From NCBI GenBank assembly GCA_034189385.1, contig JAXHVD010000009.1, positions 94,921-158,920 of the forward strand: a stretch of 64,000 nucleotides of DNA, read 5' to 3'. The translations under genes were made by a program, and so were the position numbers. The DNA is from Thermodesulfobacteriota bacterium. Lineage in GTDB: Bacteria; Desulfobacterota; Desulfobacteria; Desulfobacterales; C00003060. Shown in pieces: positions 12,897 to 19,081 of this stretch (position 1 is the stretch's first letter; each line of letters opens with the position of its first letter). Below the pieces are notes generated by a model. That model saw only the letters and a program-made list of their open reading frames with translations, did not search any database and was not told the origin of the DNA.

Positions 12897-14141
12897 CTAT
12901 TCCGACAGGCCTTCATCATTTTTCTTTATAATTTCAATGGTTTTTACGCTATACCGGTCTGCTTCAAGAACACGAACTCGAAGATCTCCATCAGTAAAGG
13001 TCTCCCCTTTTCGAGGAATTCGTCCCATGTGATGGAGGACATATCCGGCCACTGTCTCGAACCCCGCTTTCTTGATGGCAATGCCGGTCTCATCCTTGAG
13101 ATCGTCGATGTCGGTGCTCCCACTGACGCGGAAGTGGCCGGGCTCTTTCTGCTGTACCTCAGGAACGTGATCTTCGTGTTCGTCCGTGAGTTCTCCGAAG
13201 ATTTCCTCAATCATATCTTCCAGGGTCACAATCCCAAAACAGGCGCCAAACTCGTTCACTACAATAGCCAGGCTTTCACGCTCCCGTTGCATTTCCACAA
13301 ACAGCTCGTCGATCCGTTTTGTGTCAGGCACGAGGCGCGCCTGTCGCACGTAGGGGCGGATGAAAGTCTTTCGGTCTTTGTCATAAAAGATGTCAAAGAC
13401 GTTTACAAAGGCCACGATCTGGTCCACTCGGTCGCGATAGACGGGAATTCGGGTGTGGCCCTGTTCCCGCACCAGGGCAAGCAGCTCGTCGGTCCGGCCT
13501 GTCTCAGGGATCAGGGCCACGTCTGAGATGGGAACCATGACTTCGCGAACAATGGTGGTGGCATAGTCTAGAGCCGATTCCAGCATCTCCTGCTGGTGCT
13601 GCCGCAGGCCCCCACTCTCGACTGACTCCTCAAGCACCATCTTTATTTCCTCACGGGTTGTATAAAGGCTTCTGGGCCTGCTTCGGAAAAGACGAAAAAG
13701 CAGATTGGTGACCAGGCTAATGGGAAGAGTGACAGGGGCCATGATCCAGGACATGAGTTTCCAGATGATGGCGGCTCTGACAAACGTCTGCTCAGCATGG
13801 TATCTGAAATAAACCTTTGGAACGATCTCGCTAACAACCAGGAGAATGGACGTCATGGCTGCCGTTGCCACGATAGGTGCGAGAGAACCTATCCAGCGTT
13901 GCAGTGTGACCGTAGCGATGACGCCTGCTGCTATGTTGAAGACGTTGGTCGCGATGAGGGTCACCACGAGGCTACGTTCCTTTTGGTCTAGGAGGCCGAG
14001 GGCCATATTGGCCCTACTCAACCCTTGGGTGGCCAGGTGCCGAAGGCGTATGCGGCTTGCCGAAACCAGAGCTGTTTCGGAACCGGAGGCAAAGCTGGAA
14101 CCCAAAATGCAAATCAGTAGGAGCAGAAACTCAAGCATCAC
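12897..14141 (-). CDS. CNNM/hemolysin-family CBS-domain membrane protein
   Basis: SGSETAL, EIVPK, CBS pair, CorC-like C-terminus. Confidence 0.9.
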   Translation of the reverse strand: MMLEFLLLLICILGSSFASGSETALVSASRIRLRHLATQGLSRANMALGLLDQKERSLVVTLIATNVFNIAAGVIATVTLQRWIGSLAPIVATAAMTSILLVVSEIVPKVYFRYHAEQTFVRAAIIWKLMSWIMAPVTLPISLVTNLLFRLFRSRPRSLYTTREEIKMVLEESVESGGLRQHQQEMLESALDYATTIVREVMVPISDVALIPETGRTDELLALVREQGHTRIPVYRDRVDQIVAFVNVFDIFYDKDRKTFIRPYVRQARLVPDTKRIDELFVEMQRERESLAIVVNEFGACFGIVTLEDMIEEIFGELTDEHEDHVPEVQQKEPGHFRVSGSTDIDDLKDETGIAIKKAGFETVAGYVLHHMGRIPRKGETFTDGDLRVRVLEADRYSVKTIEIIKKNDEGLSE

Positions 14142-15411
14142 CTTCGGACACCTCTTTTGTCTCGCGTTTGATGCGACAACTCACGATTCTATGTCGCCTG
14201 GCTTCAGCCACGGTGAAACGCGCACCATTTCTCTCAATGGTCCGCCCTGGGGTGGGGATCTCTCCGAATTCATCACACAGATATCCATTGAGCGTCACGG
14301 ACTCGCCAGCTGGAAGGTCTAACCCGCAGATTTCATTTACCTGTTCTATGGGTGCCCGGCACAGCACGAACCACTCGTCAGGCCCAACAGGGCGAATGAG
14401 CTCTTCAGCTTTTTCGTATTCGTCATAGATCTCGCCTACTATTTCTTCAACCAGGTCCTCCATCGTCACAATGCCGGAGGTCACACCATATTCGTTGACG
14501 ATGACAGACATGTTGATAAGATTTTTTTGCATGTGCCTGAAGATGCGGTGGGTGCTGGCCCCTTCCGGGAAGATGGCCACAGGTTTTAGGAGCTCGCGGA
14601 TGTCGCGGTCTGGATTCAGAAAGAACTCCTTGGTACCGACAAAACCCACGATATGGTCCAGGCTGGTTTCCGAAATCGGTATACGGGAATGGTGGGCTGC
14701 AATCATCAACTCCTCGAGCTGGTCCCTGGCAATGTCCAAGGGGGCGGCCACGATGTCCACCCGCGGGGTCATAATTTCCTCTGCCGTGGTCTCAGAAAAC
14801 CGCATGATATTGCGTGCCATGCGCTGCTCATGGGACGTGATGGTCTCTTTGCGCCCAGCTTCGTCAAAGAGGAATTCCAGTTCTGATGGACCAAGAGCGT
14901 CTCGTGCTTCTTCAGGTACGTTCAGGAATCGCAAAATGGCGTGAGCCAAGCGGTCAAAGATTGCCACTACAGGTCGGGATATCTTGGAAAAAACATGCAG
15001 CGGTACGACAGCAGCAAGAGAAAGGCGCCTTGCCTGACTGACTGCAATGGTTTTTGGGATGATTTCTCCGATGAGAAGGACGAGGAGAGAATCTACCACA
15101 ATGGCTGCAGAGAGCTTGTGTGAGGGTAAGAGCCTTGCAAAAAGAAGGGCGGCAGTGGCTGAGGTGGCCACATTGATAAGGGTGTTTCCAAAGAGGATCG
15201 TTGAAAGCAACTGCCGTGGTCGTTTCAACATGCTGTCAATGAGCGTGGATCGCTTTGATTTGCTTTCCCGGATACGCCGGCGTTCAATGCGATCGAGGCA
15301 AAAAAGAGCTGTTTCCGTTGCGGAGAAGCAAGCCGAAAGGAGAAGTAGAAGGGCTAGTAGTCCTAGAAGTAGAACTACACCTGACGAGGGGTCGTCCAAC
15401 AAGATCTCCAT
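14131..15411 (-). CDS. CNNM/hemolysin-family CBS-domain membrane protein (paralog)
   Basis: FSATETAL, GEIIPK, EDLVEEIVGEIYDEY. Confidence 0.9.
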   Translation of the reverse strand: MEILLDDPSSGVVLLLGLLALLLLLSACFSATETALFCLDRIERRRIRESKSKRSTLIDSMLKRPRQLLSTILFGNTLINVATSATAALLFARLLPSHKLSAAIVVDSLLVLLIGEIIPKTIAVSQARRLSLAAVVPLHVFSKISRPVVAIFDRLAHAILRFLNVPEEARDALGPSELEFLFDEAGRKETITSHEQRMARNIMRFSETTAEEIMTPRVDIVAAPLDIARDQLEELMIAAHHSRIPISETSLDHIVGFVGTKEFFLNPDRDIRELLKPVAIFPEGASTHRIFRHMQKNLINMSVIVNEYGVTSGIVTMEDLVEEIVGEIYDEYEKAEELIRPVGPDEWFVLCRAPIEQVNEICGLDLPAGESVTLNGYLCDEFGEIPTPGRTIERNGARFTVAEARRHRIVSCRIKRETKEVSEGDA

Positions 15412-15868
15412 GGTATGATTTCAGCCTATAAGGTCGTCCCTTGGGGGGACAGACGCCAAGGCCGTGACAAAACGTATTTAAAATACGCCAGAAAAAGCTA
15501 TGAGGTCAAGAAAAAACATGGACACCAGAAAGGAAGGGCGTCCCGTCAACGGTGGGGCCTATTTCCACCAGGGTCCTTCAAATGGCCTGCCTCTTAATCT
15601 TGCACGGAACATGAAGAAAAAAAGAGAAGCCCCTTGAGAGGAAACCGATATTTCCGACCACCCCTTTCCACTGGAGCACCAAAGCCATTTGGGCGGTTTC
15701 TTTAGACAACGGTGCAACCTTTTGAAATATCCAAAATATCGGTTGATAAACCGACAAAGGCATGGTACCGGAAAAAGCAAAGCTATCCAAAGGGCCGATT
15801 GGTCATTTAGTCCGCTTTCGTCCTTTCAGCGCCTTTATGAACCCTGCCCAAAGAGGAGGATATGGCCT

Positions 15869-16792
15869 ATGTGTGCAAGAAAAGGATGCGCGTTTATCAT
15901 CGCTTTGGCGTTGATGCTTTTCTCTGGGAATTGCCTAGCGAGTCCGCCTGTTCCGCCACCCACAGAGGGCTTTAATATTGCGACCGCCGTGGACTGTGAG
16001 ATGTCGGCAGGGGACTTCACGGAGACAGAGGGGTTTACCTGGACGTGGGTGCGCGATATGGATCCCACTGTTCTATTCTACACACCCAGCACGCTAGCCT
16101 ATCCCGGCACAGATCCATACCTGGAAATCTGTGGGCGGGCCGCCCAGATCCGTTATTCTGAGGCGATGCAGTCCACTGATACGTCCTTCTTCCAGTTCAA
16201 GAAAGACTTTGCTGCTGCCTCTGAAGGGGCCGATACTGCCGGCAATAATCTCAGTGTTGACAAGAATTACGGGTATGTGGCTTCAGAGGCAAGCCTCATA
16301 GCCAATGCAACGAATAGCGAAAGGGTGGGCTTGAGCATCGTAGCCAAGGGGGATACTGCAGGATTGGGTGACATGCCTTCTCTTTGTCCCTGGGCAGCAG
16401 AGGATTTCATACCGGCAACAAATGAGTTTATTGCCATGGGGAGCGACACCAGCACCATGAGCGTCATGGTATCTGACACGGAAACAACGACGGCAGCAAC
16501 TAGGGCACCAGCTTTAAATCACAGTATTTCGGCCGTGGGCGTTGGCATGTCGCAAGGGCTGATGAAAGTGGCGTTGATGGAAGGCGATACCATGTATGAT
16601 CCCCTGTTTGACAATCATGGACGGCCGGAGGATTTGTTTTGGGTTCCCGGACCACCCAACCTTCAGAGCCAAACCGACTACAGCGAGAAATCAACGGCTT
16701 CCGGTACCATCGACAAGTTCGCCAAAGCCATGCATTATCATTCAACGATCCCTCAATGGCAAATGCCCGAACCCTGGTACCAGCTTCAGTAG
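15869..16792 (+). CDS. Secreted beta-rich protein resembling Methanomicrobiales sheath-protein family
   Basis: GAGGAGG RBS; signal peptide MCARKGCAFIIALALMLFSGNCLA; motifs LCPWA..FIPATN..IAMGS, LMEG, YSEKSTASG.I.KF.K.M.Y.S; own terminator. Family call is from recall. Confidence 0.6.
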   Translation: MCARKGCAFIIALALMLFSGNCLASPPVPPPTEGFNIATAVDCEMSAGDFTETEGFTWTWVRDMDPTVLFYTPSTLAYPGTDPYLEICGRAAQIRYSEAMQSTDTSFFQFKKDFAAASEGADTAGNNLSVDKNYGYVASEASLIANATNSERVGLSIVAKGDTAGLGDMPSLCPWAAEDFIPATNEFIAMGSDTSTMSVMVSDTETTTAATRAPALNHSISAVGVGMSQGLMKVALMEGDTMYDPLFDNHGRPEDLFWVPGPPNLQSQTDYSEKSTASGTIDKFAKAMHYHSTIPQWQMPEPWYQLQ

Positions 16793-16816
16793 CCCTAAAG
16801 TCTGCTCACGTATGAG

Positions 16817-16845
16817 AAAGGGAGCCCCAATCGGGGCTCCCTTTT
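16817..16845 (+). terminator. Intrinsic terminator (probably bidirectional)
   Basis: aaagggagcccc-aatc-ggggctcccttt followed by T. Confidence 0.85.
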
Positions 16846-16969
16846 GTGCGCTTGAATGGCCAGACTCCGTTTTTCACAATCCCACCGGCAGAAAAGAGTC
16901 AAGGCCTTGGGCCGGTGGAAAGAGAGGAGTCCTACAGGGGGGTGGATTCATACTTCTTAAGGGGCAGAG

Positions 16970-17324: not shown

Positions 17325-17813
17325 CTAAAGGCGCTCTATCATGGTTTCAACGTCTTCACCGACTGTTTTAAACTGGAGTCCCACCCCCCCTGTGGTGGTT
17401 CGAACGACCATGCCGGTGACAGTGATTGGTTCTTCTTGATCATCAGGTGAAAAGATGAGCGTAAGGTGTTGTCCAACGGCCAGGTATGCACAGGTTTCCA
17501 GAAAGGCGCCGTCACAACTAATATCGGTCACGACATCCTTGAAGACCTTGTCTTCGACGACGTAGCGCACGGCCAGGTCACAAGGCTTTCTTGGGCTCTT
17601 TCTCCGTTCCCAATGCTCCAGCAATCCAAAAAGCTGCCATTCCTCCAATAATCCCAAAAGGGTCTTTTGCTGCTCAAAAGATGCCCTCTCTGCGAATCTA
17701 GCAAGATTCCTGGCAACCTCTTTCAACTGGGCCGTCACCCTGGCCTTTTCAGGTTGTGAATCAGGCTTTTTCATAGGAGGAACACATCTCCAAATCTTTA
17801 TAAATAAAACCAC
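17325..17813 (-). CDS. PilZ domain protein
   Basis: ERRKSPR and DISCDG motifs (RxxxR, DxSxxG); true start may be 17774. Confidence 0.9.
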   Translation of the reverse strand: MVLFIKIWRCVPPMKKPDSQPEKARVTAQLKEVARNLARFAERASFEQQKTLLGLLEEWQLFGLLEHWERRKSPRKPCDLAVRYVVEDKVFKDVVTDISCDGAFLETCAYLAVGQHLTLIFSPDDQEEPITVTGMVVRTTTGGVGLQFKTVGEDVETMIERL

Positions 17814-19005: not shown

Positions 19006-19081
19006 GCCCCCGTAGCTCAGGGGATAGAGCAAAGGATTCCTAATCCTTGCGCCGCAGGTTCGATTCCTGCCGGGGGCACCA
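19006..19081 (+). tRNA. tRNA-Arg(CCT)
   Basis: GCCCCCGTAGCTCAG..AAGGA-TTCCTAA-TCCTT..GGTTCGATTCC..GGGGGCACCA cloverleaf with encoded CCA. Confidence 0.95.

What the first reader, a model, noticed from the sequence alone, without database searches (positions are those of the whole stretch)
15869..16792. Bacterial secreted protein resembling the archaeal Methanospirillum/Methanomicrobiales sheath protein family
Seen: a monocistronic gene (GAGGAGG RBS, Sec-type signal, own terminator) encoding a T/S/A/D-rich protein with the ordered motifs P-P-x-E..I.T..D, TE.E...W, QIRYSE, KKDF, NL.V.K..GY, LCPWA..FIPATN..IAMGS, PALNHSI, LMEG and a terminal YSEKSTASG.I.KF.K.M.Y.S. Recalled knowledge: I remember a very similar motif string (LCPF..IP.FCN.V.MGS..P..L.Y.I..IMEGR..Y.E.T.ASG.I..F.K.M.Y.S) in the Methanospirillum hungatei major sheath protein and its paralogs, which build an amyloid-like beta-hoop sheath. 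Inference: this may be a cross-domain transfer from a co-occurring methanogen and could give a deltaproteobacterium a proteinaceous sheath or amyloid matrix. The flanking genes are bacterial.
Basis: partly seen in the sequence, partly recalled or inferred. Interest (0 to 1): 0.85.

Follow-up and report, generated by a model that had tools for sequence, protein, structure and literature searches.

The report
Archaeal sheath protein in sulfate-reducing bacteria
A sulfate-reducing bacterium carries several copies of the amyloid-like protein that some archaea use to build a tube around their cells, one copy beside a curli-type export pore, so these bacteria may build an archaeal-style protein coat.

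Summary
The gene is real, sits on a bacterial contig, and is a homologue of the archaeal sheath (SH) proteins. It is 35% identical to a catalogued ANME-1 SH protein. Profiles match the Methanolinea SH family at 99.6% and M. hungatei Mhun_2271 at 97.8% (86.8% with close relatives only). AlphaFold gives 12 long strands (pLDDT 89), and a three-copy model joins head to tail as SH rings do (0.68, best control 0.11).

The genome holds six full copies. One lies in a conserved cluster with a CsgG-type secretion lipoprotein, an SH-like companion shared with ANME-1, a weakly CsgF-like gene and a secreted Hsp20. Among 401 phylum genomes, the same two carry SH and this CsgG subfamily. A 2024 survey reported no bacterial SH homologues.

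A recent transfer from a Methanomicrobiales methanogen does not: the nearest archaeal kin are ANME-1, and the bacterial copies form one deep group of unknown root. Best reading: a cross-beta surface polymer exported through a curli-type pore (0.7). A true tubular sheath is unshown (about 0.4). No expression or microscopy data.

The parts
15853..15859 (+). Ribosome-binding site GAGGAGG
   Evidence: sequence, 9 nt before the ATG
15869..16792 (+). SH-family gene, 307 aa (P0001), one of six full copies in genome G000
15869..15940 (+). Sec-type signal peptide, residues 1-24 (read by eye)
   Evidence: helix 2-17 in the model; A24-S25-P-P-V invariant in 41 of 41 close relatives
15974..16057 (+). First beta-arch, residues 36-63; one face of the subunit interface
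   Evidence: strands 36-45 and 52-63; pairs antiparallel with 265-291 of the next copy
16058..16132 (+). Short variable loop, residues 64-88, where M. hungatei SH carries its roughly 100-residue helical cap
   Evidence: insert position in the profile alignment; variable in relatives
16385..16387 (+). Cys173 in the linker; aligns with Cys257 of M. hungatei SH, proposed there to link rings by disulfide
   Evidence: 41 of 41 close relatives and 75 of 77 wider relatives keep it; alignment; PMC10593813 section 8
16586..16660 (+). Second variable loop, residues 240-264
   Evidence: differs in length and sequence among copies
16661..16741 (+). Last beta-arch, residues 265-291; other face of the subunit interface
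16816..16846 (+). Intrinsic-terminator-like hairpin, usable on both strands
   Evidence: 13 pairs, -25.5 kcal/mol
14131..15411 (-). Upstream neighbour: CNNM/CBS/CorC protein (context only)
   Evidence: Pfam over cut-off
17325..17813 (-). Downstream neighbour: PilZ-domain protein (context only)
   Evidence: Pfam over cut-off

Best explanation
The gene encodes a structural subunit of an archaeal-type sheath amyloid that a small set of Desulfobacterota has coupled to a curli-type (type VIII) export route. Shown by computation: homology to SH proteins, a 12-strand core, six full copies in the genome, and a conserved cluster csgG-like / secreted protein / SH / SH-like companion / acidic secreted protein / CsgF-like / secreted Hsp20 on contig C18. 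Predicted: subunits join head to tail, last beta-arch to first, into an open-ended two-sheet cross-beta ribbon. Inferred: Sec carries the chain to the periplasm; the secreted Hsp20 keeps it unfolded; the CsgG-type lipoprotein pore passes it over the outer membrane; it polymerises on the surface, with Cys173 cross-linking ribbons and the two variable loops facing out. The stand-alone copy in this window would use the pore encoded on C18. The product is a surface layer of hoops or ribbons; whether it closes into a tube is open.
For: Homology: phmmer over 1.84 billion proteins gave 69 hits, among them ANME-1 PXF51987.1 (E 1.5e-14). That 298-aa protein and its 286-aa neighbour PXF51985.1 match by genome, length and spacing the two SH entries listed for G60ANME1 in Table S2 of PMC11576556. 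P0001 against the 286-aa protein: 35% over 305 columns, E 8e-45. hhalign, 41 close relatives against 47 Methanolinea-family proteins: 99.6%, E 9e-25, 266 columns. Against Mhun_2271/WP_011449234.1 (identity confirmed): 97.8%, E 9e-13 with the 77-row profile, which holds archaeal intermediates. Fold: pLDDT 89.3, pTM 0.84, ten long strand segments, two of them double length, giving 12; SH core is two sheets of six strands. Assembly: three copies score 0.68, best of 3 controls 0.11; the mark was reached by 20 of 30 proteins solved as pairs and 1 of 23 solved as single chains (counts hold only roughly: own alignment, three copies); runs agree in at least 93% of contacts, pLDDT at least 80; the interface is residues 265-291 antiparallel to 36-62, the S11-S12 arch against the N-terminal strand as in M. 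hungatei. Export: CsgG (PF03783) over cut-off beside SH genes in L026, L029, L032 and G000 C18; profile matches E. coli CsgG along about 200 residues, E 2e-20; these CsgGs are 45-58% identical to G000's across lineages. Co-occurrence: in 401 phylum genomes SH is in G000 and G244 and the CsgG subfamily (over 400 bits; all others 79 or less) in the same two; G244 was not in the profile. In 37 family genomes both are in G000 and G013 only (these two are not independent of the profile). No curlin repeat was found in G000, so the pore lacks its usual cargo (90% complete).
Against: No expression, protein or image data. With close relatives only, the match to Mhun_2271 is 86.8%, E 4e-6, and a genome search with that profile gave only E 0.0125. 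PF03783 is broad: 31 of 37 family genomes have some hit, only 26% of its hits were true curli genes in PMC3521004, and the cluster's CsgG scores 42-64 bits against the 505-bit CsgG equivalog cut-off. CsgF is not established: 1 of 7 members hits PF10614 at E 0.023, under cut-off; none over cut-off in G000. Genome G452 has SH plus companion but no CsgG of this subfamily (its contig ends just after the companion). The second cysteine of M. hungatei (C271) is not kept, and the large cap said to set ring curvature is absent. A 283-residue chain is long for a curli pore substrate (own knowledge). The window's copy is not itself in the cluster.
Confidence: 0.7

Rival explanations
1. Same subunit and export, but the polymer is a loose amyloid ribbon or biofilm fibre (curli-like role), not a cell-enclosing sheath. 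This is a branch of the best explanation; the confidence is for 'fibres only'.
For: The export partner is a fibre-secretion pore. The cap said to cause ring curvature in M. hungatei is replaced by a 25-residue loop. Only one cysteine is invariant. No sheath or filament is mentioned for Seep-SRB1c in the passages searched.
Against: Cap-less and small-cap SH proteins occur in sheathed Methanothrix and ANME-1. The copy number (3-7 matches a genome) and the companion gene mirror ANME-1 loci. Seep-SRB1c has never been identified microscopically as an AOM partner, so silence is weak.
Confidence: 0.3
2. The bacterial subunits are docking pieces: they co-polymerise with the sheath of ANME-1 partners and tie the bacterium to the archaeal filament.
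For: Closest archaeal kin are ANME-1 SH proteins, with the interface strands among the best-kept parts. Viral SH-like proteins are predicted to join host sheaths. A Seep-SRB1c genome is proposed as partner of ANME-1b in a biofilm.
Against: The family also lies in a Syntrophales genome and others with no known ANME tie. Only 2 of 37 family genomes carry it. Seep-SRB1c is listed as non-syntrophic in PMC10553843. The homo-oligomer model is already confident. A mixed complex was not modelled.
Confidence: 0.12
3. The proteins are SH homologues but stay in the periplasm or serve as soluble beta-rich proteins; the CsgG-family neighbour does something else.
For: CsgG-family hits are often unrelated to curli; CsgF and CsgE are not established.
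Against: The CsgG subfamily tracks SH across 401 genomes and stays adjacent through several gene orders. Open edge strands that pair head to tail would be hazardous in a periplasm (inference).
Confidence: 0.1
4. Archaeal DNA mis-assembled or mis-binned into a bacterial genome.
For: All bacterial carriers seen are metagenome-assembled, many on short contigs.
Against: Contigs of two studies bridge the gene and its CNNM neighbour; the same order recurs in L145; six copies lie on six contigs among bacterial genes; the neighbour CsgG is an outer-membrane lipoprotein family not found in three archaeal genomes searched; the genome has dsrA.
Confidence: 0.02

Closest known systems
ANME-1 (Alkanophagales) SH proteins, e.g. 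G60ANME1 PXF51985.1 and PXF51987.1 (Medvedeva et al. 2024, PMC11576556)
   Same: 35% identity over the whole chain, same N-terminal ASPPVP start, linker cysteine, small loops instead of a large cap, several copies, and the same downstream 231-aa companion gene (33%, E 3e-30).
   Different: Bacterial host with an outer membrane; linked to a CsgG-type pore and a secreted Hsp20; one linker cysteine where ANME-1 has two; bacterial rows group apart from archaeal rows.
Methanospirillum hungatei major sheath protein Mhun_2271 / WP_011449234.1 (Wang et al. 2023, PMC10593813)
   Same: Collinear core over 250 columns, signal peptide, Cys257 = Cys173, predicted head-to-tail arch pairing.
   Different: 23% identity; no helical cap of about 100 residues; Cys271 not kept; no image of hoops or a tube.
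Curli type VIII secretion system (CsgG, CsgF, CsgE; cargo CsgA/CsgB)
   Same: CsgG-family lipoprotein matching E. coli CsgG, E 2e-20; small secreted neighbour with a faint CsgF hit; amyloid-type cargo.
   Different: No curlin repeats found; cargo is an antiparallel beta-arch protein of archaeal type; CsgG far under the equivalog cut-off; no CsgE/CsgC hit, a secreted Hsp20 instead.
Caulobacter holdfast anchor HfaB (CsgG family)
   Same: A CsgG-family protein serving non-curli cargo (role recalled, not checked here); weak hit, 18-20 bits.
   Different: Cluster CsgG scores higher to curli CsgG (42-64 bits) than to HfaB; unrelated cargo.

Membership tests
Archaeal sheath (SH) protein family | Sequence/profile homology to Mhun_2271 and catalogued SH proteins | tested here: met
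   35%, E 8e-45 to the catalogued ANME-1 protein; hhalign 99.6% to the Methanolinea family, 97.8% and 86.8% to Mhun_2271. The published HMMs were not run.
Archaeal sheath (SH) protein family | Core of two sheets of six antiparallel strands joined by beta-arches | tested here: met
   Model pLDDT 89, 12 long strands by DSSP count, collinear with Mhun_2271. No superposition was possible: no SH model was found in the PDB libraries.
Archaeal sheath (SH) protein family | Signal peptide, 150-350 aa | tested here: met
   307 aa, N-terminal basic/hydrophobic stretch ending C-L-A, read by eye; criteria from PMC11576556.
Archaeal sheath (SH) protein family | Head-to-tail beta-sheet augmentation between subunits | tested here: met
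   Predicted only: 0.68 against best control 0.11; 20 of 30 solved pairs and 1 of 23 single chains reached the mark; last arch pairs with first arch (compare).
Archaeal sheath (SH) protein family | Two cysteines on opposite faces for ring-to-ring disulfides | tested here: inconclusive
   Linker Cys173 in 41 of 41; the C271 position is not kept; a cysteine near residue 43-46 in 13 and 8 of 41 could stand in.
Archaeal sheath (SH) protein family | Several gene copies per genome | tested here: met
   Six full and two partial copies in G000; 6 and 7 copies in two NCBI-named Thermodesulfobacteriota genomes.
Archaeal sheath (SH) protein family | Builds a tubular sheath of stacked hoops; amyloid behaviour; very high expression | not testable with these tools
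   Needs microscopy, biochemistry and RNA data.
Curli type VIII secretion system | CsgG outer-membrane lipoprotein pore | tested here: met
   PF03783 over cut-off, lipobox-type Gly-Cys invariant in 4 of 4, E 2e-20 to E. coli CsgG; family level only, under the equivalog cut-off.
Curli type VIII secretion system | CsgF | tested here: inconclusive
   Conserved small secreted gene, next to csgG in L029, L032, L146, L162; 1 of 7 hits PF10614 at E 0.023; no PDB or Atlas support.
Curli type VIII secretion system | CsgE | tested here: inconclusive
   An acidic secreted gene precedes the CsgF-like gene, with no CsgE hit in two members scanned against Pfam and one against NCBIfam; PF10627 was not searched genome-wide.
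Curli type VIII secretion system | CsgA/CsgB curlin-repeat cargo | tested here: not met
   PF07012 not found in G000, 90% complete; P0001 has no Pfam hit. So it is not curli, though it may work like it.

The most novel reading that the evidence does not exclude
Some uncultured Desulfobacterota, including members of the Seep-SRB1c family, enclose their cells in a true archaeal-type amyloid sheath, built from subunits exchanged with ANME-1 and exported through a re-purposed curli pore: an envelope layer crossing the domain boundary, and a new cargo class for type VIII secretion. Given the depth of the bacterial group and the missing root, the ANME-1 and Methanomicrobiales subunits could even descend from the bacterial ones.
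Probability: 0.4. Interest if true: 0.93.

Novelty: new variant of a known kind. Interest (0 to 1): 0.85.

Why it matters
The 2024 survey of sheath proteins found no structural homologue in Bacteria and called the sheath likely unique to archaea (PMC11576556); it also found no conserved assembly genes near SH genes. This finding contradicts the first point and supplies, on the bacterial side, a conserved cluster with a candidate pore, chaperone and minor subunits. That makes SH export and assembly testable in laboratory E. coli, which already secretes curli. It also gives a predicted morphology and a marker for a sulfate-reducer lineage proposed as an ANME-1 partner but never identified microscopically as one, and points to an SH-like companion gene between catalogued ANME-1 SH genes.

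Tried and rejected
No Pfam or NCBIfam family for P0001; no PDB sequence hit under E 0.66. Foldseek PDB and BFVD gave only long-strand look-alikes (TM 0.17 or less); VIA-align best Z 6.3, rmsd 6.6 over 86 residues; the M. hungatei study deposited maps only. ESM Atlas: CAP-family hits at 0.87, under the lead threshold, rejected; nothing for the CsgF-like protein. PDB searches with CsgF-like profiles: 0 hits, then chance hits. The secreted protein after csgG looks beta-rich but is not shown SH-like: hhalign 20%, AlphaFold pLDDT 32; its link to a divergent ANME-1 gene is unsupported (8%). NCBI accessions were not found in the 2024 supplements, which use other ids; matching was by genome, length and spacing. 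The careful tree did not finish in two runs, so only the quick tree stands; no clade test was run. No RNA holder listed. Order sample: SH only in G000 among 401 (at most 6 candidates scored per genome). Earlier findings: none by sequence or words; the one note by place is unrelated.

Full report
Observation. The ORF 15869-16792 (+) encodes 307 aa with the ribosome-binding site, the ordered motifs and a terminator-like hairpin as described. Neighbours are two CNNM/CorC genes and two PilZ genes on the other strand, then tRNA-Arg and pyrE. The genome G000 (4.13 Mb, 64 contigs, 90% complete) has dsrA over cut-off. Contigs of two studies bridge the gene and its upstream neighbour, and contig L145 repeats the gene order with a 79% identical protein. 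The gene is bacterial and real.

Family. No Pfam, NCBIfam or PDB sequence match exists. The word-indexed search gave 154 relatives among 2045 candidates; of the 120 listed, the 13 with an organism name are all Thermodesulfobacteriota, from two genomes with 6 and 7 copies. G000 holds six full copies (53-68% identical to P0001) and two partial ones. The unindexed search gave 69 hits. Of 20 distant hits looked up first, four clusters bear archaeal names (two Methanophagales/ANME-1, two Halobacteriota) and the rest none. The weakest hit, P0185, leads to the Methanolinea mesophila paralogues, a genome credited with 27 SH proteins.

Is it a sheath protein? Table S2 of PMC11576556 lists two SH proteins for G60ANME1, of 286 and 298 aa, one gene apart. 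Locus L028 of that genome has exactly this. P0001 is 35% identical to the 286-aa protein over 305 columns. Profile comparison of 41 close relatives with 47 Methanolinea-family proteins gives 99.6%. Mhun_2271 was retrieved and its identity confirmed; the match is 97.8% with the wide profile, which includes archaeal intermediates, 86.8% with close relatives only, and 23% identity pairwise. The alignment puts the M. hungatei helical cap where P0001 has a 25-residue loop and aligns Cys257 with Cys173. AlphaFold on the 77-row alignment gives pLDDT 89, pTM 0.84 and 12 long strands. Three copies score 0.68 against a best control of 0.11 (the mark was reached by 20 of 30 solved pairs and 1 of 23 single chains; counts hold only roughly; at least 93% of contacts agree, pLDDT at least 80), pairing residues 265-291 antiparallel with 36-62 of the next copy. 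That is the interface described for SH rings. These are predictions, not measurements.

Who has it. A scan of genome representatives found 11 loci among 435 candidate stretches: 7 in four bacterial genomes and 4 in archaeal ones. Two bacterial records are classified as C00003060 (Seep-SRB1c) and Syntrophales. The C00003060 record's copies group with all six G000 copies at SH-aLRT 98, so G000 is probably Seep-SRB1c; this is an inference. The family is rare: 2 of 37 genomes in G000's family, 1 of 401 in its order, 2 of 401 in its phylum, counts including G000; the last two scored at most six candidates a genome. In a quick, unrooted tree of 78 rows, all 23 bacterial-labelled rows (two labelled only by their CsgG neighbour) lie on one side of a branch with support 94, with 26 unlabelled rows; Methanomicrobiales are on a long branch beyond ANME-1. 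Methanothrix, Thermofilales and viral SH proteins were not included. An old exchange with ANME-1 fits; its direction is not shown.

The cluster. On contig C18 (21180-27655) one copy lies in the series CsgG-type lipoprotein, secreted 244-aa protein, SH, 232-aa companion, acidic secreted protein, small secreted protein, secreted Hsp20. The same seven genes occur in L026, L141 and L142 (close kin; L099 and L026 built the profiles), and rearranged subsets in L029, L032, L146 and L162. Of 23 metagenome loci, 3 show the CsgG; most others are short or solitary copies like the window's. The companion is SH-like (98.5%) and also follows SH genes in ANME-1 (33%), so a gene pair is shared across domains. 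The CsgG matches E. coli CsgG but only at family level. Its subfamily tracks SH: the same 2 of 401 phylum genomes, G244 scoring 438 bits without being in the profile, all others 79 or less; the same 2 of 37 family genomes (not independent). One exception: G452 has SH but no such CsgG. CsgF and CsgE are not established; no curlin repeat was found.

Mechanism. Archaea need only Sec to put SH outside; a diderm bacterium must also cross the outer membrane without letting an amyloid set in the periplasm. A CsgG-type pore and a secreted small heat-shock protein answer exactly that need (inference from curli biology, PMC3521004). I therefore put 0.7 on a surface cross-beta polymer exported by the cluster, split about 0.4 tubular sheath and 0.3 fibres or ribbons. 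Docking on ANME-1 sheaths (0.12), a periplasmic role (0.1) and artefact (0.02) are the rivals.

Novelty. PMC11576556 states that no structural homologue was found in Bacteria. Searches for a bacterial report or a CsgG link returned none by title or abstract; the library lacks most subscription papers, and preprint supplements are closed. Papers seen: PMC11576556, parts 1-3 of 6 of the text, supplement table parts 1-2 and row hits, archive parts 1 and 41; PMC10593813, passages and sections 7-8; PMC13109099, PMC10553843 and PMC3521004, passages; PMC10491686, three supplement rows; the rest, search listings only. The HfaB role and the size of usual curli cargo are recalled.

Verdict. A real, first-seen bacterial branch of the archaeal sheath-protein family, joined to curli-type export genes: a new variant of known kinds, interest 0.85. 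The sheath itself is unshown.

Noticed in passing
G000:C2:104604-105083 (-) and C2:7237-7710 (-): Two half-size secreted SH-like genes (159 and 157 aa) that keep only the C-terminal strands (34% to residues 173-307; 50% to 265-292). They could cap or nucleate polymers.
   Followed up: partly
G000:C20:48044-48220 (+): Isolated remnant matching the last 24 residues of SH (58%, E 4e-10), probably a decayed copy.
   Followed up: partly
L028:6927-7622; also L030, L034, L070, L136: The 221-241-aa gene after ANME-1 SH genes is itself SH-like but is not among the two SH proteins listed for G60ANME1.
   Followed up: yes
G000:C18:27083-27655 (L099:11084-11656): Hsp20-domain protein with a signal peptide, unusual for this mostly cytoplasmic family (own knowledge); kept in L026, L141, L142.
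   Followed up: partly
L045:640-2304 (P0143): 554-aa form with SH core at the C-terminus, a 250-aa N-terminal extension and an Asp-rich repeat linker; recalls archaeal sheath adhesins.
   Followed up: no
L025:208-5556 and L031:778-5512: Solitary SH copies next to TamA/TamB genes and among PEP-CTERM genes.
   Followed up: no
window 15442-15938: A related strain in run X1 has the CNNM and SH genes joined by a different 523-base intergenic stretch: the promoter region turns over fast.
   Followed up: no
L013 (G244:C186:2426-3206): The SH gene of G244 reads in two frames around a run of N: assembly gap or broken gene.
   Followed up: no
G000:C45:51322-51855: A second, distant CsgG-family gene, outside the SH-linked subfamily.
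   Followed up: no
L141:6006-8078: A 690-aa gene is inserted between companion and acidic gene in this copy of the cluster; a TPR membrane protein of the same length lies near the cluster in L029.
   Followed up: no
window 19006-19081: tRNA-Arg(CCT) 2.2 kb downstream of the gene; no sign of an integrated element was sought.
   Followed up: no
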